Shown here: piece by piece, positions 37,480 to 59,814 of the stretch
Layout of the letters: the number at the start of each line of letters is the position of its first letter
Position numbering within the stretch: position 1 is the first letter of the stretch
From: an uncultured delta proteobacterium
GTDB taxonomy: Bacteria; Desulfobacterota; Desulfomonilia; UBA1062
Assembly: GCA_963752595.1 (NCBI GenBank)
Contig: CAVVYZ010000015.1
Coordinates: 160,728-224,727 of the forward strand
Direction: 5' to 3'
Length of the DNA stretch: 64,000 nucleotides
Position numbers and translations under genes: made by a program
The notes under the pieces: model-generated
The model's database searches: none
What the model was told of the DNA's origin: nothing
The model's input: only the letters and a program-made list of their open reading frames with translations

Positions 37480-38660
37480 TCAGATTTTTTCCACTTCAAC
37501 GTATTTCCCGCGCTGAGTCAGTACCTGTACCAGCTCCCTGATATAGACCATGCGCATGGGTTCGCCGCGGATAATGTCCGCCACCTGGTTCGGGTTGATT
37601 GCGGTGCCGACGATCAGGCGGATCTCGTCGGCCAGCAGAAGCGATCGGGCCAGGCGGGTCGCTGCGTCTTTGTCATGGGGCAGGTCATGGATGGTTTTTG
37701 CCGGTCCGCAGGAGCTCCGCTGCCTGACCAAGGGTCAGGATGCCTTCGGTCACCAGGTCCACCCCCTTCAGCAGTGCCGTGGGAGGGGAGCCTTTTTTCT
37801 GCTTGGGGGAATCCTGTTTCGCTTTGCCGGGCGGCATCCAATCCACGTTCAAGCTCTTCCTCGAGCACCCGGGCCGCCATCTGTGCAGTGCTGCCGCCGC
37901 AGATGATCTTTTCCCCTTCCGCACTCATCAGCGTCGATACGGCAAACTCGTCCATTTCCTTGTTTGCCGGCGGGCCCGTGAGCATCGTCGCGGAAACGGC
38001 GGGCCGAACCCGCATGCTGATGACCGTTGCATCGTCGCCCGGCTTGTCATCGTACAGCTTCAGGCATGTCCGGGACAGGGCCCGGGTCAGTTTGATGCGT
38101 ATCGATAACCCCTGTCTCCACGCAGCGCCGCACTGCCAGGGCGATATTCTTCCATCCCCAGCCCAGCCGGTAGAGCCCGCCCACGCCGGCGTGGTCGTAT
38201 CCGTCGCTGATCAGGACCATGTAGTCGTTTTCCTTGAGCTCGAAGCGTGCCTCGCGGATCAGGCGCCCCTTACTCCCGTTCCTCCACGGGGAGGTCGACC
38301 AGGGCATCGTCGCGTACCAGGATCAGCGGCGGGGAATCGAACTCCACCAGATGCGCATCGTGTCCATGGTACACCTTCAGCATGGCGAAGGTTGCGTAGG
38401 CAAGCTTGCGCACCTGCATTCCGGCAGGGTTTCCACCAGCGTCTCCATCACATCTTCCACGGCGCGCCCGATTCGAACATCCGGGACGGCGATTTCCGCC
38501 GTGAGCGTCGACATGATGTTGGCCTTGACGCCGCTGCCCAGGCCGTCGGAGAGCACGGCGACGAAAGAGTCGGGGTCGTCCTGATGATGACCGAATCCCC
38601 GCACAGCTCCTCTCCGGCCTTGTTCAGGCTTTCCCAGGCAAACTCGACGATCTGCCTCAC
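37480..38660 (-). CDS. SpoIIE/PP2C Ser phosphatase (HfsC-like); frameshifted
   Basis: LNKAGEELCGD, LSDGLGSGVKANI, SDG..HAGVG, TGPP, ICGGSTA, VTEGILTL, VGTAINP. Confidence 0.88.
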
Positions 38661-40402
38661 TTGGTCCCTTCCTCTTCGAGCAGTTTGGCCAGATGGGAAA
38701 CCATCATCTTGCTCTCTGCCGTCGTTTCACCCAAGGAGCTGGGCGATCTCATGGGCGACGCGCATCTGCTTGCTCACCACCTCCTGGGTTCTTCGCAAGC
38801 GTTTCGTCGCGGAGCGTGTTGAACTTCTCCCGCTCCTTCTCCCGTTCGGTCACGTCGCGGAGGATTGCCACCATCAGCGTCTGCCCTTCGACCCGGACGA
38901 TGGTCTGCTCGACGATGATGTCTTCCCTGAGCTGGCGGGCTTTGCCCGATGACAGGCTCTCCCGTGTCGCGCACCTAGATAAAATCGTCCAGGACGGGCA
39001 TGAGAGCGTGACAGATGTTGTCCGCTGTACATCCGACCAGCTTGCAGTTGAACAGCTTCTCCGCGGAGGGGGACATGTCCTGGATGATGAGGTCATTATC
39101 GACGATGAGGATCGCGTTCGGCGTGACGTCCATGACGACCTGGCGCAGCGACTCCGCCCGGCGGCGCATGTAAGGGATGCACATGGTGGCCTCCGCCATG
39201 CCCCGCAGCGTGGCCACGGCCTTTTCCCGGCAGGTCGGATACCCGCAGGCGCCGCAGTTCAGCTCATCGTCCGGCGTGTACTTGTTGACGCGGTGCAGGA
39301 CCTCCTGGATCTGCTCTTCGCTGAATTCCGGGACGTGCTCCTTCCTGTCGCTGTAGGTGCGTTCCAGTGGAGGCCAGTCTCTCGCGGGGTATCGCAGGTC
39401 CGGCTGGTCGATGCGGCATGGAACTCGATAATCCGCTGCCGCGCCAGATAGATGCCGCCCGGCAACATCGGCCATGGCCGGGCCGTTGATGCACCCGCCC
39501 TTGCAGGCCAGCAGCTCGACCAGGCAGGCATCCAGCTTGCCCGGAGCGGATGTCGCGCAGCACTTCCTCGCAGGCATCCAGCCCGGAGGCGACGATCATC
39601 TGGCTGCCCAGGATATCGGTGTCCATGCTGGCCGTGCCGACCAGGCCACCCTCGATCGGGAAACAGCCGGGCATTTTCCGGGCCGTTGGTCTCTCCGATG
39701 CCTTTCGGATACCGGACTGCAGTCCGATGCCGTTTTCCGTCATCCATTCCTGCAGGCCGTGGAAGGTCATGGCCGCATCGATCGCACATGCCACACGGAC
39801 TCCTCGGGCATCTCCGTTTCTTGGCAATGCACGGGCCGATGAAGACGATGATATGCCTCCGGACCGTATTTTTCGGCCAGGAGGCGTCCATGGGCGATCA
39901 TCGGGAGAAACAATGGGCGCCAGGTGGCGGAATCAGGTCGGGGTAATACTGCTCGATGAGATTGACGACGACCGGGCAGGACGAAGCGATGACCGGCCAT
40001 GCGTCCCGGTCCTTCTCCATGTACTCCCGGTGGGCCAGGGCCACGATCTCCGCCCCGAAGGCCGTTTCTTCGGCCGCATGAAAGCCCGAGGTTCTTCAGG
40101 GCCGTTCTCCATCTGGCGAGAAACTCTTGCATACCGAAGAAGGCCGGGGCAGAAGGGGCGACGGATGCGACGACCATGCCGGCCTTCGGCCATGGCCGTT
40201 CATGACGTCCGGCCTGGCGCTTCTGATGCTCTTTGCGCCTTCTGGGGGCAGACACGAACGCAGGTGCCGCAGACGATGCAGAGCTCCGGAACGACCTGGG
40301 CCTGGCCGTCCTTTACCCGGATGGCCTTGACATCGCAGTTGCGCACGCAGCGGTAGCAGTCACGGCATCGGGCCGGGTTGGTGCTGATAACGGTTCATTC
40401 AT
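38657..40402 (-). CDS. Putative sensory group C [FeFe]-hydrogenase with FeS and PAS domains (HydS/HfsB-like); frameshifted
   Basis: CRDCYRCVRNC; H-domain IASSCPVV / IGPCIAKK / ELLACKGGCINGP; LNCGACGYPTCREKA; TPNAILIVD. Confidence 0.85.
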
Positions 40403-40441
40403 GATGTCTCCTCTCATTCTGAGGAAACCGGCCATGGCCTG

Positions 40442-40692
40442 TCAGATCGATCGCGGCATCGATCTCCCTGTAGAAAGAAGCTCGGCCTCCTCGGGGCGGA
40501 TTCCGCTGAATGCACGGTCTCCGACCCGCACGGATACTCCCTTTCGAGCAGGTATCCATGCAGAAGGCGCCGACCATATCCACGAGCCCTTCCAGGTTCT
40601 CTTTTTCGATCAGCCGCTGGAATTCGAGGCCAGTTCGTCCGAGCCGCGGACACTGCAGGAGGACTACCGACGCAGATCGTCACAATCAGCAT
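40442..40692 (-). CDS. Thioredoxin-like [2Fe-2S] ferredoxin (HfsA-like); frameshifted
   Basis: TICVGS.C.VRG and GAFCMDTC. Confidence 0.75.
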
Positions 40693-40696
40693 GCCT

Positions 40697-43600
40697 TTAT
40701 CCCTTCGCTCTTTTCATTGCATCGAGTAACGGCATCAGGTGTCCGTCGATGATAGCGGCTGCATCTGCCGGATCCACGAATACCGATGATCCTTTTGCCG
40801 ACAATGATATTCGGTCCGCCTCTCGCACTGGCCGGTACAGAACCGGGCCTTGACCCGGAAGCGCTCCGACAGGCCGCGCCGCCGCAAGTTCGGCCGCCAG
40901 GCCTTCCAGAAGCTGCCAGGACCCCTTGACGTAGCAGTTGGTGCCGATGCAGACGCCGACATCGATCACCGGCTCTTCTTTCAGCGATTCCTCGACGGAC
41001 GTCTCCTCGAGCCGCATGGAGCGGCGGCCGTAGGTCGTGTGCAGGGCATGGTGCGACGTTTCGCTGTCCGGCTCGCCCAGCCAGTTGCTGTAGACGGCCT
41101 GGACGGACGGGTTGTCCTGGCTGGTCCTGATCGGCGCTTCCCGGTCCAGGCGGTAGAGGACTTCCAGGCGCTCCTCCGTATCACTGGTCAATTGCGGGGC
41201 CGGGTTGCCGGAGCCGTTGATGCAGCCGCCGGGGCAGGCCATGACCTCGATCAGATCGTAGGGGGCATCGCCGGCCCGGATGCGGTCGATCAGCTGCTGG
41301 GCGTTCTGCAGGCCGCTGACCACGGCCAGGCGAACCTGCGATCGCCCAGAGTGACGTTGGTTTCCTTGACCCCCTGCAGCCCTCGGACGCCTTCATAGCT
41401 GAAGCTTTCCATGCGGTTGTCCGTGATGCGTTCCGCCGCCAGGCGCAGGGCTGCTTCGGCCACGCCGCCGCTGGCGCCGAAGATGATGCCGGCGCCGCTG
41501 ACCTTGCCGAAAAAGGCGTCCACGGGAGCGGCTTGATGACGTCGGGGATCCAGGTGCTTCTCCGCGAACATCTCGATGATGTCGTTGGTGGTCAGGACCG
41601 CGTCCACGTCGGGAATGCCGCCTGCGGTGAATTCCGGGCGCTTGCCTCGTACTTCTTGGCGTTGCAGGGCATGATGGACACGAAGTACAGGAGCTCCGGC
41701 CGGACGCCCGAGCTGTTTGGCGAAGTACTGCTTCATGACCGCGCCGAACATCTGCTGGGGCGACTTGCAGGAGGAGAGATGGGGCAGGATATCCGGCGCC
41801 ATCTTCTCGCAGTAGTTGACCCAGGCCGGGCAGCAGGAGGTGAACTGCGGCAGGACGCCCCCTTCCGCCAGGCGGCTGAGGAACTCGGTGCCTTCTTCCA
41901 TGATGGTCAGGTCGGCGGCCCAGCAGGTGTCGAAGACGTAGTTGAAGCCGAGCTGTTTCAGGCCTGCGCTCAGGATACGGCATGGCTTCGGCCGGCGTCG
42001 ATGCCGTAGTGCTGGCCGAAGGCGGCGCGCACCGCCGGGGCGATCTGGGCCACCACGGTCAGCTCCGGGTTATGCAGGGCCCGGTAGACCGTGCGGGAGC
42101 ACCGGCTTGAAGGTCAGCGCGCCGGTGGGGCAGACTGGTGGCGCAGTGGCCGCAGGCGACGCAGGTGGTCTTATCCAGCGGGCGGTGATCGTTCGGCCCG
42201 ATGGTCAGGATGTTGTTGGTTTCGTAGAAGCTCAGCGCCGAGACGCCTTCCATTTCACGGCAGACTTTCAGGCACAGGCCGCACAGGATGCATTTGCCGG
42301 GATCGCGCGTGATGATCGGGTGGTTGTCATCGATGGGCAGCGGTTGTGCAGGTCGGCTCTTGTCGAACGTGACGCCATAGAGCGCTGGCATAATTCCGCA
42401 GAGCGCAGTCGTACCGCTCCGTGCAGCCGCAGGCCAGGCAGCGCGACGCCTCTGCCATGGCGGTCTCCGTGTCCCAGGTCTCGTCGATTCATCAAATGAT
42501 CCTTTCTGCGATCTGTGAGGGAAGTGCCGGAATTTCACGGCGCTCCGCGGCCGGACGCCCTTGAACGTATCTTCCGGTACATCCTGCCAGTTTCCCTTGC
42601 TGCAGGTGTAGGGCTCGGCGGAGGCGTCGACGCGTCCGCTGCGGACGAGCTGGTCGATGGCGTCGGCGGCGCGCCTGCCGGCGCCGATGGCGGCCACGGC
42701 GATATCGGGGCCGGTAATGCAGTCGCCGCCGGAAAAGACCCAGGGCAGCGCTGGTCTGCATGGTTGCCGGATCGACCTTGACGGCGCCCCGTTTGTCGAT
42801 CAGGGGCTCGTCGCCGATGCAGAATCCGTCGACGGCCTGGCCGATGGCCGAGATGATCGTGTCGGCGGTCAGGGTGAACTCGGAGCCGGCAACGGGCACA
42901 GGCCGGCGCCGGCCGCTGTCGTCCGGTTCGCCCAGAGCCATGCGGATGCAGTTCAGCTGGAGCATGGCGCCGGCGGGTTTGATGGAAACGGGTGCGGTCA
43001 GGAACTGGATATTGACGCCTTCTTCGATGGCCTCTTCGACCTCGATCTCCTGCGCAGGCATTTCCTGCCGGGTCCGCCGGTAGACGATGGTCACATCCTT
43101 GGCGCCCAGGCGGACGGCGCTGCGGGCGGCATCCATGGCCGTATTGCCGCCGCCGAGGACGAGAACCCGATCGCCGAGGTCCGGGCTTTTCGTCCCGGGC
43201 GAGCCTGGCGAGAAAATCGAGGCCGGACATGACGCCCGGCAGGTCTTCGCCCTCCACGCCGATGGCCGTGGCCTTCTGCGCGCCCAGCCCGATAAAGACG
43301 GCGCGTATAGCCGTCTCCTTTCAGCGACTCGAGGGTGAAGTCACGGCCCAGCTTCTTATTGTACTGGATCTCGACGCCCAGGTCGAGGATCGACTGGATC
43401 TCCGCGTCAAGCACTTTTTCCGGCAGGCGGTAGTAAGGGATTCCCCAGCGGAGCATACCGCCGGCCGCCTCCTGCATCTCGAAGATCGTCACGCTGTGGC
43501 CCATCCGGCGCAGGAAGTAGGCGGCGGTCAAGCCGGCCGGGCCCGGCGCCGATGACGGCCACCCGGATGCCCGTATCCGGAAGGCAATCAGGCTTGTAGG

Positions 43601-44146
43601 GGAGAGCTGATAGCGGTCCCAGTCGGCAACGAAACGCTTGACGGCATTGATATTAACTGCGCCGTCCAGGGCGTTGCGGCGGCAGTCGGCCTCGCAGGGA
43701 TGCGGGCAGACGCGTCCGCAGACAGACGGCAGGGGGTTGCTTTCCTTGATGACCTCCAGGGCCTCGGCAAAATTGCCTGCAGCGACGTGGTAAAGGTATT
43801 TCTGAATATCGATATGGGCCGGACACCGCTGCACGCAGGGTGCAACGCAGTCGCCATAATGGTTGCGCAGCAGGGCCTGGAGATAGATTTTCCGGAAGCT
43901 GTCCATGGCATCGGAATTCGTCCGAATCACCATGCCGTCATGCACCGGCGTCGAAGTTGCGGAGACGAATCGTGATGTGCCGCCATCCAAGATTTCCACA
44001 AAGGCAATCTCGATATCACTCGGGGGACTGACTCTGGGGTCATACTCCAAGGCCGGGATATCGATGCCGTTTGCCCGCGCCGCGTCGATAATCGTCATGG
44101 TGCTTTCTGCAATGTATGTCTTATCGTCGATCCTGATGGTAAGCAT
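40697..44146 (-). CDS. Fusion: degenerate Fer2 domain, GltD-like FAD/NADPH oxidoreductase, 2x[4Fe-4S], [FeFe] H-cluster, thioredoxin-like [2Fe-2S]; frameshifted
   Basis: HYGDCVAPCVQRCP, CGRVCPHPCE, GMLRWGIP, AARSAVRLGA..YRR, KCILCGLC, FTSCCPAW, EVMACPGGCING, CIGTNC. Confidence 0.8.
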
Positions 44147-44537
44147 CTCTTCCTCCCCGATCTCTTGTTTGTATGAGAATTACCCTGGTGATCTGCCTCC
44201 TGGATACCGGCTCGGAATCACATATGATTCGATTAATCCTGAAATGGCAGAGCTGACGCCGCACATGTTTTTATCAATCGATTTGATCATGAGACCCGTC
44301 AGCTCGGAGACCCTGTACATCCCGGTTCCTCTCCTTACCCATGGGCTATTTATGAACTGCCCTCTATCTGAAGTCAATATACCTTCACGCCTGTTTAAAG
44401 ACGGGTTTTGATTCATTTATATGCTATCAGAAATATTATATAATATAAAGCAAATTGCTAATGAATGGTAATATGATGGTTAATAACCTGAAATAACAAG
44501 TAAATAAGATCGTAAACCCAAAAGAATGCCCGGATGC

Positions 44538-45098
44538 TCAGTTGGTTCGAGGTATGTCACTGACCGTATTGATATTAGCAAAAGTTATCTCCGGGTCTGT
44601 ATACCTCCTGATTATGTCTTCCGGTATAGGCAGGATATCAACGGTTTTGAGCAGATCGAATATCCGGTACGTTTTCTTTTTCAGAAGATCGGCTGCAAGA
44701 GGAAGTATTCTTTTATGGTAGATGGAATGGAGAGGCTCTCTGCCTTTCGACCAGAAAGGGATCACGACATCGTGATCGTCTGCAACAGAAATCATGTACC
44801 GGATGAGATCTTTGTTCAGGTTCGGCATGTCTGCTGCAAAGACGAAGCACTGGGGAGCTTTCGATATTGATAACGCCGTATAGATGCCTCCGAGAGGTCC
44901 GCATCCGGGATAGATATCCTCTACGACCGGAAAAGATTCGAGGCCTTCCCGCATGTGGCCGATGAGCATGACCTCATCGAACAAAGGAGAAATAACGTCG
45001 GTGACATGCCTGACGAGGGTTTTTTCCCGGACACGGGCCAGCACCTTGTCTTTTCCGAAGCGGCTCGATTTTCCACCTATCAGTACTATCCCTGTCAT
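44538..45098 (-). CDS. mobA: Molybdenum cofactor guanylyltransferase
   Basis: LIGGKSSRFGKDK, GPLGGI, DMP, NINT. Confidence 0.92.
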   Translation of the reverse strand: MTGIVLIGGKSSRFGKDKVLARVREKTLVRHVTDVISPLFDEVMLIGHMREGLESFPVVEDIYPGCGPLGGIYTALSISKAPQCFVFAADMPNLNKDLIRYMISVADDHDVVIPFWSKGREPLHSIYHKRILPLAADLLKKKTYRIFDLLKTVDILPIPEDIIRRYTDPEITFANINTVSDIPRTN

Positions 45099-45496: not shown

Positions 45497-46003
45497 GTGG
45501 CAGGTATGGAAATGACTCAAATGGGCGCAGGGTTGGAGGAATTTACCTCGGAACAACTCTCAAAAGTCGATGAGATTATCCTCAAGTTTAAGTCAAAACC
45601 GGGCGCACTGATTCCGGTGCTCGAAGAGGTCCAGGATACATGCGGGTACCTTCCCATGGCCCTTCAGCTTCGGGTAGCCAAAGGTCTGAACATTCCGGTT
45701 GCGAATGTGTACGGGGTGGTGACCTTTTACTCGTTTTTCACCATGGTTCCCAAGGGGAAACACGTGATCAGGGTATGCCTTGGAACCGCCTGTTACGTAC
45801 GCGGCGGCCAGAGGATTCTCGAAACGCTGGTCAGCAGCCTCGGCATAGCACCTGGAGAATGTACGGAAGACAGGAACTTCTCACTGGAGACCGTACGCTG
45901 CCTTGGCGCCTGCGGGCTTGCTCCGGTTGTTGTCGTTGATGATGATACCCATGGCCAGATGAAGCCTTCCAAGCTCGAAAAAGTCCTGGCTGAGTACCGA
46001 TAG
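45497..46003 (+). CDS. NuoE-like [2Fe-2S] subunit (HydC/HndA)
   Basis: GVVTFYSFF, CLGTAC, CLGACGLAP. Confidence 0.93.
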   Translation: MAGMEMTQMGAGLEEFTSEQLSKVDEIILKFKSKPGALIPVLEEVQDTCGYLPMALQLRVAKGLNIPVANVYGVVTFYSFFTMVPKGKHVIRVCLGTACYVRGGQRILETLVSSLGIAPGECTEDRNFSLETVRCLGACGLAPVVVVDDDTHGQMKPSKLEKVLAEYR

Positions 46004-46012
46004 GAGGATGAC

Positions 46013-46403
46013 ATGGCCAAACTAACAATTAGCGATCTCAAGAAGATCAAGGAAAGGGTAGAGAAAGAGGATCAGTTCAGAGCAGGCACCAAGCGCGTGA
46101 AGCTGACCGTTCACATGGGAACCTGCGGGATTGCCTCGGGCGCAAAGGGCATCCTCGATACGTTCATGAACGAGATCAGCGAGGCAAACGTGGAAGACGT
46201 GCTCATCACCACCTCCGGCTGCATCGGCATCTGCAGCCGCGAACCTCTTGCCACGATTGAAGAGCAGGGTAAGGAACCCATCGTCTACGAGTACCTTACC
46301 GAAAACAAGGCAAGGCAGATATTCAAGCGGCACGTTCTGAAGGGCGAGATCCAGACGGACTTCGTCCTGGCAAGGGGAAGAGAGCAGGAGGGGGGGAAAG
46401 TAA
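46013..46403 (+). CDS. Thioredoxin-like [2Fe-2S] ferredoxin subunit (HydD/HndB)
   Basis: VHMGTCGIASGA, GCIGICSREP; stop probably TAA 46401-46403 after a G7 run. Confidence 0.85.
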
Positions 46404-49400
46404 ATGAAAGTCTTTCGAGCTCATATACTCGTATGCGGCGGTACCGGCTGCAGGGCAACTGGCAGCGAAGCTGTCAGCCAGGCAGTCGTCAAGGAATTAA
46501 CGGCAAAAGGGCTCTTGGATGAAGTGGCAGTCGTAGAGACAGGATGCAACGGTTTCTGCGCGGCCGGTCCCATCATGGTGATCTATCCCGAGGGCACCTT
46601 CTATCAGTATGTAAAAGCCGATGACGTCAAAGAAATCATCGAAGAGCATATCATCAAGGGAAGGCCGGTCGAGAGGCTCATGTACAAGGAGCCTGTCACC
46701 GAGAAGGCCATTCCCCACATGCTCGATATCCCTTTCTTCGGCAAACAGCAGCTCATCGCGCTCAAGAACAGGGGCCTGATCGATGCGGAAAAGATCGACG
46801 AGTACATCGCCAGGGAAGGTTACACAGGGGCTGCCAAGGCCCTGACCGAGATGACCCCCGAAGATGTCATCGAAGAGGTCAAGAAATCAGGTCTTCGCGG
46901 AAGAGGCGGCGGCGGGTTCCCCACCGGTATGAAGTGGTCCTTTGCACGCAAGTCGAAGGGCGACGTGAAGTACATCCTCTGCAACGCGGACGAAGGCGAC
47001 CCCGGTGCGTTCATGGACCGGTCGGTTCTTGAGGCCGACCCCCATGCAGTGCTCGAAGGCATGATCATCGGCGGTTACGCAATCGGCGCCAAGAAGGGCT
47101 ACATCTACTGCCGCGCCGAATATCCGCTGGCCATTAAGCGCCTCGACCCTCGCTATCGCTCAGGCAAAGGAATACGGGCTGCTCGGTGAAGATATCCTCG
47201 GCTCCGACTACAGCCTGGACATCGAGGTCTACCAGGGCGCAGGCGCATTCGTATGCGGTGAAGAGACCGCGCTGATGGCATCCATCGAGGGCAAGCGCGG
47301 CATGCCCAGGCCCAGACCGCCGTTCCCGGCAAGCCAGGGCTTGTGGAAAAAGCCTTCCGTTCTGAACAACGTCGAGACGTTCGCCAATATCTCCCAGATC
47401 ATCCAGAAGGGCGGGGCATGGTATTCTTCCATCGGAACCGAGCGATCCAAGGGCACCAAGGTGTTCGCTCTGACCGGTGCGGTGAACAATGTGGGTCTGG
47501 TGGAAGTCCCCATGGGAACCCCCATCGGTGATATCATATTCGACATCGGCGGCGGGATCCCTGAAGGCAAGAAGTACAAGGCCGCTCAGCTCGGCGGTCC
47601 TTCCGGCGGATGTATCCCGGCGTCGGCACTAAACACCCCGACCGATTATGAAGAGATTATAAAGCTCGGCGCAATCATGGGCTCGGGCGGCCTCATCGTT
47701 ATGGACGAGGATACCTGCATGGTTGATACGGCCCGGTTCTTCATGGAGTTCTGCCAGGAAGAATCCTGCGGCAAGTGCACCCCGTGCCGTGAAGGCACCA
47801 AGCGCATGCTCGAAATCCTCCACCGGATATGCCATGGAGAAGGCAAGCACGGCGATATCGAGCTCCTCGAAGAACTCGCCGGCATCATCAAAGACTCCGC
47901 GCTCTGCGGCCTCGGCCAGACCGCCCCGAACCCGGTGCTCTCTACCATCCGCTATTTCAGGGATGAGTACGAGGCCCACATCTACGACAAGAAGTGTCCG
48001 GCCGCGGTATGCTCCGCCCTGTTCAAATCACCGTGCCAGCATGCATGCCCCATCGAGATGGATGTCCCGGCCTATATCGCGCTGATCAGGGCAGGACGGC
48101 TCGAGGATGCCTACAAACTCATGCTCAAGACCAACCCGTTCCCCGGGGTATGCGGCCGCGTGTGTCCGCAGTTCTGCTCCAACAAGTGCCGCAGAGGCCA
48201 GCTCGATCAGCCCATGGCCATTGCATGGCTCAAGCGCTACGTTGCAGACAACGGCAGGAAGCCCAAGATCGAGGCTGTGCCCGTTACCCGTAAGGAAAAG
48301 GTCGCGGTCATCGGTGCAGGCCCGGCAGGTCTGACCGCTGCACAGGACCTTGCAAAGCGCGGGTATAAAGTCACCGTGTTCGAAGAGCTCCCCTATGCCG
48401 GCGGTATGATGCGCTATGCGATCCCCGAGTACCGTCTTCCGAGAAACGTCATTGCGGATGAGGTAAAGGATATCGAGGCCTTAGGCGTCGAGATCAGGAC
48501 CAACACTCGCGTCGGCAAAGACATCACCTTCGACAAGCTCAGGAAAGACTATGAGATCGTCGTGATGGCCGTCGGCGCACACAAGAGCTGGACGCTCGAC
48601 ATCGAAGGAGAAGACCTCAAGGGAGTCTGGGGCGCCACCGAGTTCCTCAGGGAAGTCAACTTAGGCAAAGACGTGAAGCTGGGCTCCAAGGTCGCCATCG
48701 TAGGCGGCGGCAACTCTGCCGTTGATGCAGCGCGGACCGCGGTGAGAATGGGCGCGAAAGACGTCACCATCCTTTACCGCAGGGAGCGCAAGGATATGCC
48801 CGCCTGGGAACACGAGATCGTGGCTGCAGAGCACGAGGGCGTGAAGATCGAGTACCTCGTCGCCCCGGTTAAGCTCGTAGGCGAGAACGGCAAGCTGACC
48901 GGCGTTGTCTGCCAGAAAATGAAGCTTGGCGAATTCGACCGTTCCGGAAGGCGCAAACCGGTGCCCGTAAGCGGAAGCGAGTATACGTTGAGCATCGACA
49001 CCATGATCCCGGCCATTTCACAGTCGGCAGATACATCTTTCATACCCGCGGACTCCGACGTGGCAAAGGACAAGCGGGGTGGAATCCAGCTTTCAGCAAA
49101 GAGCAAGAACAAGACTGCAGCAGACGGCGTGTTCATCATCGGCGACGCGGCTACAGGGCCTGCAACGGTTGTTGAGGCCATTGCCATGGGCCATCAGGTG
49201 GCTCGTGACGTGGATGCCTCCATCAGGGCAAAGAACCACGAACCGGCCTACAAAGAACCTGCCGGAGAAAAGATCGAGATACCGTTCGAAGTGAACGAAG
49301 ATCTGGTCGAGACTCCGAAGGCGCTCATGCCCGAGATGGAAGTGGCTGCGCGAGTGGCCGGTTTCGCTGAGGTTGAGCTGGGCTACACCAAGGATATGGC

Positions 49401-49449
49401 GTTCAAAGAGGCATGCAGATGCTTGCGTTGTGATGCAGAGATTTCCTAG
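46404..49449 (+). CDS. NuoF-like HydB/HndC fused to a GltD-like FAD/NAD(P)H module; one frameshift near 47150
   Basis: [45 protein letters not shown], then PCQHACP, CGRVCP, GAGPAG, GGGNSA..YRR, RCLRC. Confidence 0.88.
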
Positions 49450-49485
49450 TCTTTGTATTACTTCGAAAACGACAGGGGATACTAA

Positions 49486-51279
49486 ATGGCTAAAATCAAT
49501 GTCACGATTGATAAAATAAATGTGAGTGTCGAAGAGGGAAGCACGATCCTCGATGCTGCCAAGGCGGCAGGCATCAAGATACCCACCTTGTGCGCGTGGC
49601 CTGAGATCAACCATAAACCCGGTGCATGCAGGGTCTGCACAGTGGAAGTGGACGGCCAGAGAAACCTCGTCGCTTCCTGCGTGTTCCCGGTGAACGAAGG
49701 CATGGTCGTCAGGACCACGACCGACAGGGTGCAGAAGGCAAGGAAGCTCAACGTAGAGCTCCTGCTCTCCAATCATCCGACCGAGTGCAATGTCTGCGTC
49801 AGAAACGGCAACTGCGATCTCCAGAAAGTGGCAGAAGCAGTTGGCTTACGGGAAGTGCGCTTTACGATTCCCCAATACTCGGCAGGATCCATCGATGATT
49901 CGAGCCCGTCCGTGGTTCGCGATTCACGAAAGTGCATCAAGTGCTATCGTTGCGTGACTGTATGCGAAGAAATCCAGACGGTTGCAGTGCTCTCCCCCAC
50001 ATTCCGGGGAAATAATGTCCGCATCGGACCGGCATTCAACCTGCCCCTGGCAGAAACCAACTGCGCCAACTGCGGGCAGTGCATTCTGGCCTGCCCGGTG
50101 GGTGCCCTCTATGAAAAGGATGACACCCATCACGTATGGCAGGTTCTGCAGGATCCCACCAAGCATGTGGTCGTACAGGAAGCGCCCGCAATCCGCGCCG
50201 CTCTGGGCGAGGAGTTCGGAATGCCGGTCGGGTCACTGGTAACCGGCAAAATGATCTCGGCGCTCCGCAGGATGGGTTTCGACAAGGTATTCGACACCAA
50301 CTTCACGGCGGACCTCACGATCATCGAAGAGGGAAACGAGCTTCTCAAACGGGTGAAGGAAGGCGGGACATTGCCGATGATCACCTCCTGCTCGCCCGGC
50401 TGGATCAAGTTCTGCGAGCATTTCTACCCGGATCTTTTGGATAACCTCTCCACCTGCAAATCTCCGCAGCAGATGCTCGGCGCTCTGGCAAAGACCTATT
50501 ACGCCAAGCAGGCAGGCATCGATGCAAAGGATATCGTGGTGGTCTCCGTCATGCCGTGCACGGCCAAGAAATACGAGTGCCGGCGCGATGAGATGGATGG
50601 CAGCGGGTTCCAGGATGTGGACTATGTTCTCACCACCCGCGAGCTCGCCCGGATGATCAAGCAGGCAGGCATCGATTTCGTGAACCTGCCGGACGGCGAC
50701 TATGACAACCCGCTTGGCGAGTATACCGGCGCGGGTACGATATTCGGCGCAACGGGCGGCGTTATGGAAGCTGCCATCAGGACCGTTTATGCGGTAGTAA
50801 CCGGCCGGAACCTCGGCGATATGAACGTTACACCGGTCAGGGGTCTCGATGGAGTCAAGGAGGCGGCGCTCGAAGTAGGCGGCCTCGGTACGGTCAAGGT
50901 TGCAGTGGCCCACGGCTTGAGCAATGCACGAAAGCTCATGGACAAAATCCGTGAAGGTACGGCAGACTATCATTTCATCGAGGTCATGTGCTGTCCCGGA
51001 GGCTGCATCGCAGGCGGCGGCGAGCCGATCCCGACCACGAACGAGATCCGCATGCAGCGGGCTGCAGCGCTCTACAAAGACGACGGCGCCGTACAGAAAT
51101 ACCGCCAGTCCCATGAAAACCCGTCCGTCAAGAGGATCTACGAGGTCTTTCTCAAGGAGCCTCTCGGACATGTATCTCACAAACTGCTGCATACCCACTA
51201 TACGAAGCGCGGAACTGATCTGCCCCATCAAGGGAGAAAGATCGAGATCAAAACAGAGGAAAAGAAATCAGCATATTAG
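49486..51279 (+). CDS. hydA: Group A [FeFe]-hydrogenase catalytic subunit
   Basis: [2Fe-2S], HxxxCxxC, 2x[4Fe-4S]; TSCSPGW, MPCTAKKYE, EVMCCPGGCIAGGG, LLHT. Confidence 0.95.
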   Translation: MAKINVTIDKINVSVEEGSTILDAAKAAGIKIPTLCAWPEINHKPGACRVCTVEVDGQRNLVASCVFPVNEGMVVRTTTDRVQKARKLNVELLLSNHPTECNVCVRNGNCDLQKVAEAVGLREVRFTIPQYSAGSIDDSSPSVVRDSRKCIKCYRCVTVCEEIQTVAVLSPTFRGNNVRIGPAFNLPLAETNCANCGQCILACPVGALYEKDDTHHVWQVLQDPTKHVVVQEAPAIRAALGEEFGMPVGSLVTGKMISALRRMGFDKVFDTNFTADLTIIEEGNELLKRVKEGGTLPMITSCSPGWIKFCEHFYPDLLDNLSTCKSPQQMLGALAKTYYAKQAGIDAKDIVVVSVMPCTAKKYECRRDEMDGSGFQDVDYVLTTRELARMIKQAGIDFVNLPDGDYDNPLGEYTGAGTIFGATGGVMEAAIRTVYAVVTGRNLGDMNVTPVRGLDGVKEAALEVGGLGTVKVAVAHGLSNARKLMDKIREGTADYHFIEVMCCPGGCIAGGGEPIPTTNEIRMQRAAALYKDDGAVQKYRQSHENPSVKRIYEVFLKEPLGHVSHKLLHTHYTKRGTDLPHQGRKIEIKTEEKKSAY

Positions 51280-51442: not shown

Positions 51443-51700
51443 ATGGAGGACAAGGCAAAGAGAATCGGCGTGGTGAGCATCATCATACGCGACCGGAGGG
51501 AATCCGCCACAGAAGTGAACGGTGTGTTGAGCAGGCACGGAGAGATTATCATCGGCAGGATGGGGCTTCCCTATGAGCAAAAAGGGATAAACATCATTGC
51601 ATTGATCATCCATGGAACCACCGATGAAATAGGTTCCCTTACCGGCCGGCTCGGCTCTTTGAGAGGTGTCGAGGTGAAATCCGCGTTGACCAGGGTGTAA
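51443..51700 (+). CDS. TM1266-family iron-only hydrogenase system putative regulator
   Basis: RIGVVSIII, VNGVLS, IIGRMGLPY, LTGRLGSLRGVEVK; precedes hydG. Confidence 0.88.
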   Translation: MEDKAKRIGVVSIIIRDRRESATEVNGVLSRHGEIIIGRMGLPYEQKGINIIALIIHGTTDEIGSLTGRLGSLRGVEVKSALTRV

Positions 51701-51712
51701 AAAAGGAAGGCA

Positions 51713-53107
51713 ATGGAAGACTTCATCAACGATAGATCACTCTACGAGATATTGGAAGGATCACGGAACCAATCACCCGCCCATGTCAGGGATATTATCG
51801 CGAAATCACGGGATCTCAAAGGGCTTACCCCTGAAGAGGCCGCAGTCCTTCTCCAGGTGGAAGACCCCGAACTCGTTTCCGAGATCTGTGATGCCGCCTA
51901 TGACATCAAAAATTCCATCTACGGCAACCGGCTCGTGATGTTCGCACCGCTCTACACCTCCAATCTCTGCTCGAACAACTGCCTGTACTGCGGATTCAGG
52001 AAGGACAACAAGGACCTGAAGCGCGTGTCTCTCACAAATGAAGAAATTGCAGAAGAGGTGAGGATCCTCGAAAGGCAGGGACACAAGCGCCTCCTCATGC
52101 TCTGTGGCGAATACCGGGGCAGGCATTACCTCGATCGTTTCATCGAGGCCATCGAGATTGCCTATGCAACAAGGACGGAGAAAGGCGGGGAGATCAGGCG
52201 CATCAATGTTGAAGTCGCGCCGCTCGAGGTCGATGATTTCAAACGTCTCAAGCAGGCTGATATCGGCACCTACGTCCTTTTCCAGGAAACATACCACCAC
52301 GAGACCTACCGGGCAATGCACCCGAGCGGGCCCAAGGCAGACTACCTCTGGAGGCTGACCGCCATGGACCGCGCCATGGAGGCGGGGATCAACGATGTGG
52401 GCATCGGGGCTCTGTTCGGGCTCTATGACTACAAGCTCGAGGTGTTGGGTCTCCTCTCCCATGCAAGCCATCTCGACTCCCGGTTCGGGGTAGGTCCCCA
52501 CACCATCTCGGTTCCCAGGCTCGAGCCCGCTCTGAATGCACCGGCGGCCATCCAGCCGCCCAAGCCCGTAAGCAATGCGGAATTCAGGAAACTGGTAGCG
52601 ATCATCCGGGTCGCTGTTCCTTATACCGGGATAATCCTTTCCACCCGCGAACGGCCCGAGGTGCGCAAGGAGGTCTTCAAGGCGGGCGTCTCCCAGATCA
52701 GCGCAGGCTCACGAACCAATCCCGGTGGGTATCACTGCGGCGAAGAAGGCATGGATGACTCAGCCCAGTTCAATCTGGGCGATACCAGGTCGCTCGACGA
52801 GGTCATTCTCGACATCTCGAAACAGGGGCACATACCGAGCTTCTGTACGGCATGCTACCGGCTGGGCCGCACGGGCTCGGATTTCATGGACCTCGCCAAA
52901 CCGGGGCTCATTCAGCGTTTCTGCAGGACCAATGCGATCATCACCTACCAGGAGTACCTCATGGACTACGCATCGGACGAGACGAAGAAGGTTGGAGACA
53001 AGCTTATCAGACGCCTGGTGGAAGAGACGAGCGACAGCAGCACGAGGAACCTTCTCGAAGAGCGTCTGGGCATGATAAAAGGCGGTGAACGTGACCTGTA
53101 TATCTGA
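51713..53107 (+). CDS. hydG: [FeFe]-hydrogenase maturase HydG
   Basis: FAPLYTSNLCSNNCLYC, LFQETYH, PHTISVPR, PSFCTACYR..C. Confidence 0.95.
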   Translation: MEDFINDRSLYEILEGSRNQSPAHVRDIIAKSRDLKGLTPEEAAVLLQVEDPELVSEICDAAYDIKNSIYGNRLVMFAPLYTSNLCSNNCLYCGFRKDNKDLKRVSLTNEEIAEEVRILERQGHKRLLMLCGEYRGRHYLDRFIEAIEIAYATRTEKGGEIRRINVEVAPLEVDDFKRLKQADIGTYVLFQETYHHETYRAMHPSGPKADYLWRLTAMDRAMEAGINDVGIGALFGLYDYKLEVLGLLSHASHLDSRFGVGPHTISVPRLEPALNAPAAIQPPKPVSNAEFRKLVAIIRVAVPYTGIILSTRERPEVRKEVFKAGVSQISAGSRTNPGGYHCGEEGMDDSAQFNLGDTRSLDEVILDISKQGHIPSFCTACYRLGRTGSDFMDLAKPGLIQRFCRTNAIITYQEYLMDYASDETKKVGDKLIRRLVEETSDSSTRNLLEERLGMIKGGERDLYI

Positions 53108-54179
53108 GACTGCATCTCTCCTTGTTCGCGCCCGGCAAGAAAGATCGCTCGGCCGGGAGGAGGTCATCCGCCTCCTGTCGCTTGATTCCCCCGAAGAGAA
53201 GGAGTTCCTCTTTCGCGAGGCAGATGCGGTCCGGAAGGAATGCGTCGGCGACGAGATATATTTGCGCGGCATCGTGGAAATTTCTGCCTTTTGCAGACGG
53301 AACTGCCATTACTGCGGCTTGCGGGCCCAGAACAGTGAGGTGCGCCGCTACCGTATGGAAGATGATGACATCCTTTCCCGTGCCAGGGCCTTGAAAGAAA
53401 AATCCTGCATGACCGTTGTGCTCCAGTCGGGTGAAGACCCGTTCTTTCGCAGGGACTCTCTGTGCTCGCTCATCAGGAGGATCAAGGAAGAGACCGGTCT
53501 CGCTATAACGCTCTCCATCGGGGAAAGGCCGTATGAGGATTATCGCGCCTTTAAGGATGCCGGTGCAGACAGGTATCTTATCAGGCACGAGACCGCCTCC
53601 CCTGAACTTTACCGGACCCTCCACCCGGGTTATGAACTGGAAGACAGGATCGCCTGCCTGAAGATGCTCAAAGATCTCGGCTTTGAAACCGGCTCCGGTT
53701 TTATCGTGGGACTGCCGGGGCAGAGAGTCGATGACCTGGCAGATGATATCCTGCTCGTCAAGAAGCTGGACATCGATATGATCGGGGTCGGTCCGTTCAT
53801 CCCGCATCCCGGAACCCCCTTGGGAAATCACGGGCCAGGGAGTACGGACATGGTTCTTAAAGTCATTGCTGTCTTACGTCTGGTCACAGGGGATACCAAC
53901 ATTCCGGCTACGACAGCCCTGGGCGTCCTCGACCCCGGGGCGAGGGAAAAGGCTTTCTTCGCAGGGGCGAACGTGTTCATGCCGAATTTTACCCCGGAGC
54001 CCTATGCGGAACGGTACGAGATATATCCCGGGAAAGGTCCCGAAGCGGGCGCCATTGCTCATGCTTCGGACGGAGGATTCGAGGCTCTCTTCGAAGACAT
54101 TGGACGGCCGGTGAGTACCTGGTACGGCTATCGGAAAAGAATAATGAATAAAATGAAGATCGACCATGAACGGGGATAG
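53085..54179 (+). CDS. hydE: [FeFe]-hydrogenase maturase HydE
   Basis: CRRNCHYC, VLQSGED, RYLIRHET, GPFIPHPGTP, ATTA, GANVFMPN, YEIYPGK. Confidence 0.93.
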   Translation: MNVTCISETASLLVRARQERSLGREEVIRLLSLDSPEEKEFLFREADAVRKECVGDEIYLRGIVEISAFCRRNCHYCGLRAQNSEVRRYRMEDDDILSRARALKEKSCMTVVLQSGEDPFFRRDSLCSLIRRIKEETGLAITLSIGERPYEDYRAFKDAGADRYLIRHETASPELYRTLHPGYELEDRIACLKMLKDLGFETGSGFIVGLPGQRVDDLADDILLVKKLDIDMIGVGPFIPHPGTPLGNHGPGSTDMVLKVIAVLRLVTGDTNIPATTALGVLDPGAREKAFFAGANVFMPNFTPEPYAERYEIYPGKGPEAGAIAHASDGGFEALFEDIGRPVSTWYGYRKRIMNKMKIDHERG

Positions 54180-55572
54180 GCGAATGAGAAGGGAAAAAGA
54201 TTCGCTCGGCTTTCACGACATTCCGGAAGAATGCTATTACGGGATCCATACAATGAGGGCCCTGGATAATTTCGGAAGGGGCTCCGAAAGCCATGATCCT
54301 TTCTTCGTTACCGGATACCTCCGGATAAAGAAGGCAGCGGCCCTTGCGAATGCAGAGATCGGCGCGCTGGAATCCGAGAAAAGCGGGTTCATTGTCGAAG
54401 CCATAGACGAGCTCATAGAAGGGGGGAATTACACGGACATCGTAGTGAACCCCCTGAGCGGCGGCGCAGGGACTTCGCTCAACATGAACGTCAATGAGGT
54501 CATTGCAAACCATGCCCTGGAAAGGGCGGGAAGAGCCAAGGGCGATTATGAATATATCCATCCGCTCAACCATGTGAACCTCCACCAGTCCACCAACGAC
54601 ACCTATCCCTCTGCTTTCAGGATCGCCGTCCTCATGCACCTGAACCGGTTGGAAAAAGGGCTCGTCGGCCTGCAAGGATCTCTCCAGGCAAAGGAAAAAG
54701 ATTTCGCCACTGTTCTCAAGCTCGGCCGCACCGAGCTCCAGGATGCATTGCCCATGACCGTGGGCATGCAGTTCGCTGCATATGCAGAGGCCGTTGCCCG
54801 GGACCGGTGGAGGATCTTCAAGGCACGCGAGAGGATCAAGGTCCTGAACATCGGCGGGACTGCAATCGGTACGGGTTTCAATGCACCGCAGAAATATATC
54901 TTTACCGTGGTCGACAAGCTGAAAAACATCACCGGCCTGAACATCACCAGGGCAGAGAACATGGTGGATGCCACCCAGAACCTCGATGCCGTGGTAGAGG
55001 TTTCCGGGCTCATGAAAACCCTGGCAGTGAATCTCATGAAGGTCTCCGAAGATATCAGGCTCCTGTCCTCAGGACCTGCGGGCGGGATCGGAGAGCTCGT
55101 CATAGAGCCGCTGCAGGAAGGATCTTCCATCATGCCGGGCAAGGTCAACCCGGTGATGCTCGAGTTCGTGACCCAGGTCTCGCTCCTGGTCATGGCCCAT
55201 GACAGCGCCATTTCCCATGCCTGCAGCCTGGGCAACCTCGAGCTCAACCAGTTCTATCCTTTGGTTGCAAGCCTCATGCTCAAGGACTTCCAAATGCTCT
55301 TCCAGGCAGTGGAAGGCCTTGACGGGAAAGTGATACAGGGCATCAGGATAAATACGGAAAAGCTTAAACAGCACATGGATAATTCAGTTGCACTGCTCAC
55401 CTACCTCTCGCAGTACATCGGGCATGACAAGGCAGCGGATGTGTATATGCAGATGAAGTCTACCGGGCAATCCTTGAAAGATATCATCATCAAAGAACGT
55501 ATACTTACGGAAGGCAAGTTCGAAGAGCTGACTGCACCGGAGCGTATCATAATGATGGGGTACAGGCCATGA
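54166..55572 (+). CDS. aspA: Aspartate ammonia-lyase
   Basis: [43 protein letters not shown]. Confidence 0.88.
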
Positions 55573-56785
55573 ATACGACACCCATAGCCAACAGGCTGCA
55601 CATAGGAATATTCGGTAAACGGAACGTAGGGAAATCTTCGTTCATCAATGCCGTTACAGGCCAGCATCTCTCCATCGTATCGGACGTGCCGGGAACCACG
55701 ACCGATCCGGTCGGAAAGGCTATGGAGATCAGCGGCATCGGTGCGGTATACCTCTATGATACCGCCGGCCTGGACGATATCGGCAACCTCGGAGAGAGAG
55801 AGCGTCCCGGACGCGGGACATCATGTCGAAAATCAACCTTGCAGTCATGATTACGACCCCTGATGATTATGACGACTTCGACGAAGGACTCATCACAGAG
55901 CTCTCGGAAAGGAAGATCCCCGTCCTCATGGTTTTCAACAAATCCGACCTGGGAGGTTTGAGCGATGCCGTCATGGGAAGGATCGGCCGGTTTTCACTGC
56001 CATGGCTGCAGGTAAGCAGCAAAACCGGCGAGAACATCGAGCAGGCAAAGATGATGATCTCCAAGGCCGGCAGCGCCGTTCAGGTGGAGCGGGACACCAT
56101 CTTGGGAGATATCATATCCCACGGTGATACCGTTCTTCTCATAGTGCCCATCGACCTCGGAGCCCCGAAGGGAAGGCTCATCCTTCCGCAGGTGCAGGTC
56201 ATCAGGGACATCCTCGACAACGATGCCGTTGCCGTCACGGCCAAGGAGCGGGAGATCGAATACGTGCTGCAGAACCTGAAGATAAAACCCGCTCTCGTAA
56301 TATGCGATTCGCAGGTGGTCCTCAAGGTCTCGGGCGACATACCGGAGGACGTAAAATTCACGACATTCTCTATCCTGTTCTCCAGGCAGAAAGGCGAGCT
56401 GGCGACCTTTGTCAGAGGGGTACGGCAGATCGATGCCCTTCAGGACGGAGACAAGGTGCTCATCATGGAAGCCTGCACCCACCACCCCCTTCCCGATGAC
56501 ATCGGAAGGGTTAAGATACCCCGGTGGATCAAGCTCTATAGGGGAAAGGAAATCATCTTTGACGTCAACGCCGGCCCGTACCGCGATAAAGATATGTCGG
56601 AATACAAACTCATCATCCACTGCGGGGGCTGCATGATCAACAGAGCTGAGATGCTCCACCGGATCGGAGAGGCTGAAGACATGCAGGTACCCATTACGAA
56701 TTACGGCATCGCGATCTCGTACGTTCACGGGGTGCTTCAACGGGCGTTGTCGCCGTTTCCCTACGAGAGCAGCCTCCTTGAGTGA
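55569..56785 (+). CDS. hydF: [FeFe]-hydrogenase maturase GTPase HydF; one frameshift near 55810
   Basis: [48 protein letters not shown]. Confidence 0.93.
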
Positions 56786-59760: not shown

Positions 59761-59814
59761 GCTTTTGAAAAGGGGCAATAAAAATTAAGAAATCATTGAG
59801 GAGGTAGGGTTAGT

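What the first reader, a model, noticed from the sequence alone, without database searches (positions are those of the whole stretch)
40697..44146. Single-chain NADP(H)-linked [FeFe]-hydrogenase: GltD module inserted into HydA
Seen (joining frames): Fer2-like N-terminus, HYGDC, a full GltD/NfnB-like module (two Cys clusters, FAD site, GGGNTA..YRR signature), resumed Cys ligands, 2x[4Fe-4S], intact catalytic motifs (TSCCPAW, MPCNAKKYE, MACPGGCING) and a C-terminal thioredoxin-like [2Fe-2S]; roughly 1150 aa with no internal start/stop boundary that I could see. Known: StnC/NfnA-type subunits have this GltD insertion but no H-cluster; group A2 hydrogenases have GltD as a separate gene. Inference: a monomeric H2:NADP+ oxidoreductase and a possible link between HydA and Stn/Nfn subunits. 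I do not know a characterised example.
Basis: partly seen in the sequence, partly recalled or inferred. Interest (0 to 1): 0.8.

Follow-up and report, generated by a model that had tools for sequence, protein, structure and literature searches.

The report
Hydrogenase grafted onto NADPH transhydrogenase subunit
This broken-looking gene matches an intact, widespread one-piece protein that joins a hydrogen-activating enzyme to a predicted NADPH-binding flavin module, so it likely swaps electrons directly between hydrogen gas and NADPH, a reaction for which I found no tested single-protein iron-iron hydrogenase.

Summary
Read through 18 frameshifts (no stop codons), window 44146-40697 (-) is 84% identical to intact 1143-aa proteins. 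215 full-length relatives carry the GltD/FAD module and the H-cluster in one chain, and a same-genus genome has the gene intact.

Two corrections. (1) It is not GltD inserted into HydA: residues 1-680 are a whole StnC/NfnA-type block whose Fdh-like tail was replaced by a hydrogenase domain. Trees show this graft arose at least twice and is derived, not an ancestral link. (2) The 'Fer2' domain has lost all four cysteines in this clade (98 of 98), removing the cluster that connects to the bifurcating subunit in StnABC/NfnABC.

No hydB/hydC lies within 3 kb on the same strand in 143 loci; a putative H2-sensor trio usually follows. Best reading: a stand-alone, non-bifurcating H2:NADP(H) oxidoreductase (about 0.65). 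It fits a loose group A2 rule, and one paper mentions the domain pairing in passing; I found no biochemistry. This scan reported the same type twice before on other genomes. Whether this copy is intact or decaying is unresolved.

The parts
40697..44146 (-). Whole gene for the single-chain StnC/NfnA-block plus [FeFe]-hydrogenase (about 1145 aa), carrying 18 one-base indels
   Evidence: intact homologs
43862..44146 (-). N-terminal ferredoxin-like domain (residues 1-95) without the four [2Fe-2S] cysteines (cluster A1 lost)
   Evidence: PF13510 hit; motif absent in 98 of 98 clade members; ligand columns are G, variable, A, T
43847..43861 (-). HYGDC: first half of the His-ligated [4Fe-4S] site (H96, C100), completed by C574 and C580 after the GltD module
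42405..43846 (-). GltD/NfnL-like module and linker (residues 101-580): two [4Fe-4S] sites (C104/C155/C569/C572; C108/C147/C151/K170), FAD site with R240, GGGNTA at about 43154, YRR at about 43074-43082
   Evidence: ligand roles mapped from StnC; bounds approximate
42132..42292 (-). 2x[4Fe-4S] ferredoxin-like domain (C618-C628, C661-C671)
41023..42074 (-). H-cluster domain with motifs TSCCPAW, MPCNAKKYE, EVMACPGGCING
   Evidence: P0001 passes the TIGR02512 cut-off
40747..40966 (-). C-terminal thioredoxin-like [2Fe-2S] domain (C1064, C1069, C1101, C1105)
   Evidence: PF01257 on P0001; four Cys kept in 98 of 98 clade members
40420..40692 (-). Small thioredoxin-like [2Fe-2S] protein (HfsA-like; label recalled), starting 4 nt after the stop; frameshifted; end approximate
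38670..40400 (-). PAS-domain group C-type (putative sensory) [FeFe]-hydrogenase (HfsB/HydS-like; label recalled); frameshifted; bounds approximate
37483..38660 (-). SpoIIE-like Ser/Thr phosphatase (HfsC-like; label recalled); frameshifted
45497..51279 (+). Divergent, separate hydC-hydD-hydB(GltD-fused)-hydA operon; has its own HydA, one frameshift in hydB
51443..56785 (+). TM1266-like gene and H-cluster maturases hydG, hydE, aspA-like gene, hydF

Best explanation
The gene encodes one protein chain that holds both an [FeFe]-hydrogenase active-site domain and a GltD-type flavin module, and it likely works alone as a reversible, non-bifurcating H2:NADP(H) oxidoreductase. Shown: the single chain in intact relatives, all H-cluster and Fe-S ligands, the FAD and YRR motifs, loss of the N-terminal [2Fe-2S] ligands, and absence of adjacent hydB/hydC. 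Inferred by mapping on StnC/NfnA and HydA structures: electrons run H-cluster > 2x[4Fe-4S] > His-ligated [4Fe-4S] > two GltD [4Fe-4S] (the last with a lysine ligand) > FAD > NADP+. The branch that leads to the FMN subunit in Bfu enzymes (cluster A1) is cut in this clade. Direction is inferred from thermodynamics: NADPH at -370 to -380 mV balances 3-7 kPa H2, so the enzyme would vent NADPH as H2 in low-H2 habitats and make NADPH when H2 is high. The co-encoded PAS hydrogenase and phosphatase would tune it to H2. Origin (inferred from trees): recombination of an StnC/NfnA-type N-terminal block with a HydA H-domain and C-terminal thioredoxin domain.
For: One chain: (215 of 239). Ligands: the A3, A6, A7 (including K170), R240, GxGxxG, GGGN and YRR columns are invariant in 98 of 98 clade S proteins and in all clade F proteins covering them (116-117 of 117). 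H-cluster Cys are invariant in 215 of 215. Best solved matches to residues 2-681 are NfnA 9bov, StnC 8oh5 and NfnA 9n5u; the rest matches HydA. In StnC the FAD is non-bifurcating, K170 ligates the FAD-proximal cluster, and the NADPH path runs through the equivalent clusters (PMC10482914; PMC12018979). YRR tracks NADP(H) use in DsrL-2 and NfnB (PMC7596348). A1 motif absent in 98 of 98 clade S proteins but present in 133 of 139 StnC/NfnA-type representatives. No NuoF-like gene within 3 kb on the same strand in 0 of 64 clade S and 0 of 79 clade F loci; no conserved neighbours in clade F. Every NuoF-like gene in this genome lies beside its own HydA/NuoG-like gene. Maturases are in the window. Thermodynamics: with E' from PMC9304861 Table 1.
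Against: No activity data. The C-terminal thioredoxin [2Fe-2S] site is kept in 98 of 98 clade S proteins and has no role in a simple two-site wire, so a third partner is possible. The cysteine-less N-terminal domain stays conserved (mean 0.73), which suggests a binding role. 22 of 64 clade S loci have a hydB within about 10 kb, and the window has one divergently. The sister clade keeps A1 (115 of 117). Only 37 of 79 clade F loci have 3 kb on both sides. The structure model is weak exactly in the 2x[4Fe-4S] domain (pLDDT under 50 at 596-680; pTM 0.53), so the wire geometry is not shown. This copy is frameshifted.
Confidence: 0.65

Rival explanations
1. Three-way enzyme: besides H2 and NADP(H) it exchanges electrons with ferredoxin or the small HfsA-like protein through the C-terminal thioredoxin [2Fe-2S] (clade S) or the N-terminal [2Fe-2S] (clade F), acting as a combined hydrogenase and ferredoxin:NADP+ reductase, possibly with coupling.
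For: Each main clade keeps one peripheral [2Fe-2S] site: S keeps the C-terminal four Cys (98 of 98) and lost A1, while F keeps A1 (115 of 117) and has lost the second Cys pair of the C-terminal site. An HfsA-like thioredoxin gene is within 3 kb on the same strand in 51 of 64 S loci.
Against: The FAD site is of the StnC type (Lys, not the NfnL Glu, at the proximal cluster), which does not bifurcate in StnC. 13 of 64 S loci lack a nearby HfsA-like gene, yet all S proteins keep the site. Some F members end at about 1060 aa with no C-terminal domain.
Confidence: 0.17
2. It is the A subunit of a Bfu-type complex with HydB/HydC encoded elsewhere, giving a four-substrate (H2, NADP, NAD, ferredoxin) enzyme.
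For: Both parents (StnC/NfnA and HydA) are Bfu A subunits. hydB/hydC genes lie within about 10 kb in 22-23 of 64 S loci. All 5 holder genomes checked have several NuoF-like genes.
Against: Cluster A1, the link to the FMN subunit, is lost in 98 of 98 S proteins. Where the contig extends far enough, the nearby hydB genes are followed by their own hydA. No orphan NuoF in this genome. This reading is more plausible for the small third lineage (P0241, P0401), which keeps both peripheral clusters and whose context I could not see.
Confidence: 0.07
3. Mainly a signalling component that reports the NADPH/H2 balance to the co-encoded PAS hydrogenase and phosphatase, with little metabolic flux.
For: It heads an operon with HfsA-, HfsB- and HfsC-like genes in 49-51 of 64 S loci, often followed by kinase/phosphatase genes and another hydrogenase operon.
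Against: Its H-cluster motifs are those of catalytic group A enzymes (TSCCPAW), unlike the neighbour's altered motif. Clade F and 13 of 64 S loci have no such neighbours.
Confidence: 0.08
4. Separate question about this copy only: the operon is a real, decaying pseudogene cluster in this organism rather than a badly polished assembly stretch.
For: 52 indels fall in the four operon genes (18, 5, 21, 8), against 2 in nine flanking genes. Indels are not enriched at homopolymers (8 of 18, background 35%). 3 of 314 invariant columns differ, against a median of 0 and a maximum of 5 in intact proteins. Only 2 of 11 other genomes of the genus carry the gene.
Against: 36 of 52 indels are insertions, only 1 stop appears in the four genes and none in this one; decay would normally give stops and more deletions (general knowledge). 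311 of 314 invariant residues are kept. Other genes of this assembly are also split, for example the fdh-like gene at 57051 and NuoF-like genes on C1 and C14. The stretch is the most GC-rich part of the window.
Confidence: 0.25

Closest known systems
StnC of Sporomusa ovata StnABC (PDB 8oh5) and NfnA of NfnABC (Caldicellulosiruptor saccharolyticus 9bov; Thermococcus sibiricus 9n5u)
   Same: Residues 2-681 align as one block with the same GltD insertion in the His-ligated cluster motif, the same Lys ligand (K170), Arg (R239/R240) and YRR.
   Different: The dead Fdh/NuoG-like tail is replaced by an H-cluster domain plus a thioredoxin domain; cluster A1 is lost in this clade; no B and C subunits are encoded alongside.
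HydA of bifurcating HydABC with C-terminal thioredoxin domain (Thermotoga maritima 7p5h; also T. kivui 8a6t, A. woodii 7q4v)
   Same: 2x[4Fe-4S], H-domain and, for T. maritima, the C-terminal region align over residues 574-1119.
   Different: No GltD module; they need HydB/HydC and couple NAD and ferredoxin.
Group A2 'glutamate synthase-linked' [FeFe]-hydrogenases (HydDB)
   Same: Group A H-domain paired with a GltD-like module; function undetermined (PMC5037454; still uncharacterised in PMC12578642).
   Different: HydDB defines A2 by a separate downstream GltD-like gene and proposes NAD reduction; here the module is internal, StnC/NfnA-type and has the NADP-type YRR.
Non-bifurcating NADH-dependent HydAB of Syntrophus aciditrophicus and Hyd1ABC of Syntrophomonas wolfei
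   Same: Ferredoxin-independent pyridine nucleotide:H2 exchange (PMC8924675 passage; PMC7311640 abstract start).
   Different: Multi-subunit, FMN/NuoF-type, NADH-specific.
Sub-type I BfuB hydrogenases (HydB with DPD_II and FAD domain; PMC11406978)
   Same: GltD-like module built into an [FeFe]-hydrogenase; the divergent operon in this window is of this kind.
   Different: There the module replaces the ferredoxin domain of HydB in a multi-subunit enzyme; its GltD module branches apart from the one studied here.

Membership tests
Group A [FeFe]-hydrogenase | H-cluster motifs L1 TSCCPxW, L2 xPCxxKKxE, L3 ExMxCxxGCxxG (motif forms recalled) | tested here: met
   Present in the window; the Cys ligands are invariant in 215 of 215 full-length relatives; P0001 scores 457 bits against the TIGR02512 cut-off of 406
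Group A [FeFe]-hydrogenase | H2 oxidation or evolution activity | not testable with these tools
   No assay; maturase genes hydG, hydE, hydF are in the window
Group A2, HydDB 2016 rule | GltD-type domain in the protein immediately downstream, no NuoF | tested here: not met
   The downstream gene is a small thioredoxin-like protein; the rule as read would give A1
Group A2, rule of bioRxiv 10.64898/2026.06.24.733704 | PRK12771/PRK12814-type domain within the gene or two genes either side | tested here: met
   PRK12771 model 528.9 bits (cut-off 516); PRK12814 model E 3.8e-211, below its cut-off; rule read
StnC/NfnA (Bfu A subunit) | GltD module inserted in the His-ligated cluster motif, with clusters A3, A6, A7 (Lys) and non-bifurcating FAD site | tested here: met
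StnC/NfnA (Bfu A subunit) | N-terminal cluster A1 linking to the FMN subunit | tested here: not met
   0 of 98 clade S proteins have the motif; the window has no Cys there. Kept in 115 of 117 clade F proteins
StnC/NfnA (Bfu A subunit) | C-terminal Fdh/NuoG-like domain | tested here: not met
   Replaced by the H-domain
Bfu family (HydABC, NfnABC) | Co-encoded BfuB and BfuC subunits | tested here: not met
   No NuoF-like gene within 3 kb on the same strand in 64 S and 79 F loci; a partner in trans was checked only by gene context
NfnL/NfnB of bifurcating NfnSL | Glu ligand at the FAD-proximal cluster | tested here: not met
   Lys in 215 of 215; Glu versus Lys as described
NfnL/NfnB of bifurcating NfnSL | NfnS partner | not tested
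   No NfnS query was run; the immediate neighbours are other genes
NADP(H)-specific GltD-like flavoproteins | YRR motif after the second Rossmann strand | tested here: met
   215 of 215; link to NADP(H) from PMC7596348; specificity itself not assayed

The most novel reading that the evidence does not exclude
A self-sufficient, single-polypeptide [FeFe]-hydrogenase that interconverts H2 and NADPH with no ferredoxin and no partner subunit. It was built at least twice by grafting a HydA catalytic domain onto the NADPH subunit of a bifurcating transhydrogenase, and was then cut off from bifurcation by loss of cluster A1 in Desulfobacterota. It would be the first biochemically defined enzyme under the group A2 label and a one-gene H2-driven NADPH regenerator.
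Probability: 0.55. Interest if true: 0.7.

Novelty: new variant of a known kind. Interest (0 to 1): 0.55.

Why it matters
The pyridine-nucleotide-linked [FeFe]-hydrogenases in the papers I read are multi-subunit enzymes. GltD-linked (group A2) enzymes are common and still called uncharacterised in 2025-2026 papers. A one-gene version makes the question directly testable, and intact genes exist in cultured species named (Pseudobacteroides cellulosolvens, Dehalobacterium formicoaceticum, Clostridium thermosuccinogenes). If it works as predicted it adds an NADPH route to H2 in low-energy anaerobes and offers a compact catalyst for H2-driven NADPH recycling. It also shows that H-domain and Fdh-like tails are exchangeable on the Bfu A-subunit scaffold, with two independent origins. 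Sources often misname it 'formate dehydrogenase major subunit' or 'NAD(P)-binding protein', so it is easily missed.

Tried and rejected
Separate gltD and hydA genes: rejected. Assembly chimera: rejected; the fusion recurs in 64 genome loci and 79 metagenome loci. Simple insertion of GltD into a HydA: disfavoured. Ancestral intermediate between HydA and StnC/NfnA: disfavoured; the trees are midpoint-rooted and one search is FastTree only, so this is not proof. Raw reads to decide error versus pseudogene: no sequencing run was listed, which is no evidence either way. Binding of the C-terminal thioredoxin domain to the HfsA-like protein: the complex predictor was not available, so this is untested. 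AlphaFold model of P0001: confident in the GltD and H domains, unreliable at 596-680; the fold search only repeated the sequence result. Promoter scan of 44100-45520: 4 sites against 3.4 expected, uninformative. The GltD tree included one spurious long row (L132) and is poorly resolved. Literature: ten full-text searches found no study of the fused enzyme. Greening 2016, Calusinska 2010, Meyer 2007 and Poudel 2016 were not read and may depict this architecture. The supplement of PMC12018979 (Fig. S8) could not be read and may show this family; bioRxiv supplements were closed.
Full report
Observation. A search with the N-terminal part against longer proteins returned about 100 clusters, mostly of 1139-1159 aa and 62-79% identical, with GltD, ferredoxin and H-cluster Pfam domains on one chain. 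Names given by sources include Desulfomonilia, Smithella, Syntrophus and Syntrophorhabdaceae. A frameshift-aware alignment of the window to the best hit P0001 covers the whole protein with 940 of 1125 identities, 18 one-base indels and no stop. Three of 40 related genomes, one of the same genus (G001), hold the whole gene in one open frame, and a fourth holds residues 1-1013 up to a contig end. G001 has the same divergent layout as the window. The single chain is real.

State of this copy. The four genes of the operon carry 18, 5, 21 and 8 indels, against 2 in nine flanking genes. 36 of the 52 are insertions, there is one stop in all four genes, and 311 of 314 invariant residues are kept. Other genes of the assembly are also split. 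This looks more like consensus error in a GC-rich stretch than decay, but the indels are not homopolymer-enriched and no reads were listed. I leave about 0.25 for a true pseudogene.

Family. A second search seeded with a distant fused hit (P0120) gave a sister clade in Bacillota, Spirochaetes, Fibrobacterota and others, including cultured species. Of 239 proteins from the two searches, 215 were full-length fusions; I dropped 24 partial or StnC-like rows. I call the groups S (98; the window's) and F (117). In a sample of 301 genomes of the window's phylum, 6 had an intact full-length match, 4 of clade S and 2 of clade F, so the gene is patchy.

Anatomy. Residues 2-681 align as one block to NfnA (9bov, 9n5u) and StnC (8oh5); residues 570-1040 align to HydA, and up to 1119 to T. 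maritima HydA (fold search agrees). The GltD module interrupts the His-ligated cluster motif (H96, C100 ... C574, C580), as in StnC. The ligands of the two GltD clusters, including K170, the FAD-site R240, GGGN and YRR, are invariant in all sequences that cover them. In StnC, K170 ligates the FAD-proximal cluster and is needed for activity, and the FAD does not bifurcate (PMC10482914, passages and section 8). NfnL has Glu there (PMC12018979, section 5). YRR binds the 2'-phosphate in NfnB and tracks NADP(H) use in DsrL (PMC7596348, passages). The H-cluster cysteines are invariant in 215 of 215.

The N-terminal ferredoxin-like domain has no cysteine in the window and lacks the motif in 98 of 98 clade S proteins, while 115 of 117 clade F proteins and 133 of 139 StnC/NfnA-type representatives keep it. 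In NfnABC the NADPH path is A7-A6-A3-A2-A1-B1 (PMC11829005, passages), so A1 is the link to the bifurcating subunit, and it is gone here. The C-terminal thioredoxin site shows the mirror pattern: four Cys in 98 of 98 S proteins; in F only the first pair survives (101 of 117) or the domain is absent.

Context. In 64 clade S loci no NuoF-like gene lies within 3 kb on the same strand. 22 have one within the roughly 10 kb flanks; where the contig extends far enough it belongs to a separate operon with its own hydA. HfsA-, HfsB- and HfsC-like genes (small thioredoxin-like protein, PAS hydrogenase, SpoIIE phosphatase; labels recalled) are adjacent in 51, 51 and 49 of 64. In 79 clade F loci only one has a NuoF-like gene, with its own hydA, and no neighbour is conserved; 37 of the 79 have 3 kb on both sides. 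In this genome each NuoF-like gene lies next to its own HydA/NuoG-like gene. hydG, hydE and hydF are in the window; hydG was found in 4 of 5 other holder genomes.

Origin. The non-GltD parts of the N-terminal half score best against NfnA 9bov in all three tests, though T. maritima HydA is a close second for residues 574-680 (74 versus 73 bits). In a 44-row tree of those parts, S and F form one clade (100/98) and are separated with StnC-type proteins from ordinary HydA and Fdh by a 100/97 branch; the StnC-type rows were found with this query, which biases the test. Among the best 150 representatives at 50% identity, 139 are of the StnC/NfnA type (same N-terminal block, no H-domain; the match typically ends near residue 680) and only 3 are full-length fusions. 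In a FastTree of that block, S and F sit together (93) inside StnC/NfnA diversity; the one 'Stn' row among them, P0275, is a truncated member of a cluster whose other member is a 1142-aa fusion. The third fusion, P0241, with a second cluster P0401, is different: its first 690 residues are 61% identical to an StnC-type protein and nest among them with 97-99 support, and its H-domain nests among ordinary HydA with 96-100 support, away from the S+F clade (99). The simplest reading is two independent grafts of a HydA catalytic half onto an StnC/NfnA scaffold. The roots are midpoint only.

Mechanism. The remaining cofactors form one chain from the H-cluster through the 2x[4Fe-4S] domain and the His-ligated cluster to the GltD clusters and FAD. 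This is inferred from the parents' structures; my model is unreliable in the middle domain. With a non-bifurcating FAD, an NADP-type site and no B/C subunits, the likely reaction is H2 + NADP+ = NADPH + H+. With NADPH at -370 to -380 mV (-380 from PMC9304861 Table 1) the balance point is 3-7 kPa H2, against 3 Pa for NADH at -280 mV. The enzyme could therefore dispose of NADPH as H2 at low H2 and supply NADPH at high H2, which would make sense of the neighbouring putative H2 sensor. The kept C-terminal cluster and the conserved cysteine-less domain are unexplained and keep a three-way enzyme possible.

What is known. HydDB defines group A2 by a downstream GltD-like gene, role undetermined (PMC5037454, passages). 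A 2026 preprint also counts such domains within the gene and calls A2 uncharacterised (passages), as does PMC12578642 (passages). PMC12018979 states in one sentence that the NfnL-like domain also occurs in 'FeFe hydrogenase group A'; its figure could not be read. A review of characterised [FeFe]-hydrogenases has no hit for NADP, FAD, glutamate, fused or fusion (PMC8924675). Passages of PMC11216029, PMC7382037, PMC3561251, PMC5317091 and PMC7282089 showed nothing on this type. Ten searches found no study of it; subscription papers and the older classification reviews were out of reach. Two earlier findings of this scan describe the same type on other genomes, including the cysteine loss; I had that result before looking.

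Verdict. A real, conserved and apparently untested variant built from two well-known parts. It is not a member of the StnC/NfnA or Bfu families by the tested features, although half of it should work like StnC. It is group A by motif and A2 only under the looser rule. Interest 0.55.

Noticed in passing
window 45497-51279 (+): Divergent hydC-hydD-hydB-hydA operon whose HydB ends in a GltD/FAD module with YRR (sub-type I BfuB of PMC11406978). The locus thus holds two different NADP-type [FeFe]-hydrogenases; the same pairing recurs in many clade S loci.
   Followed up: partly
P0241 and P0401: A small third lineage with the same architecture but independent origin; it keeps both the N-terminal and C-terminal [2Fe-2S] cysteines and could still be a Bfu subunit. 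Gene context not seen.
   Followed up: partly
window 37483-44146: The four-gene operon has 63% GC against 55% on its left flank and 52-54% for most contigs, and nearly all local frameshifts; the G001 gene is also GC-rich (67%), so the GC is a property of the gene.
   Followed up: partly
window 36901-37449 (+): Stand-alone histidine-kinase ATPase domain gene (about 170-185 aa) converging on the operon end, conserved in 33 of 65 related loci.
   Followed up: no
window 51443-56785 (+): TM1266-like gene, hydG, hydE, an aspA-like gene and hydF in one run.
   Followed up: partly
window 57051-61152 (+): Frameshifted formate dehydrogenase alpha-like gene followed by an MFS transporter of the lactate/oxalate-formate type; a MobA-like gene lies at 44538-45098 (-).
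   Followed up: no
L005 2088-4700 and similar loci: In about 20 clade S loci the fused gene is preceded by a conserved set including a 228-aa protein, a 286-300-aa protein, a 350-aa protein and a divergent 548-aa protein; not annotated here.
   Followed up: no
L071-L075: Related genomes hold several proteins of about 1480-1500 aa with a GltD module closely similar to this one (45-49% identity); not identified here.
   Followed up: no
P0240: A 4122-aa protein with seven stretches matching the query, best at the H-domain.
   Followed up: no
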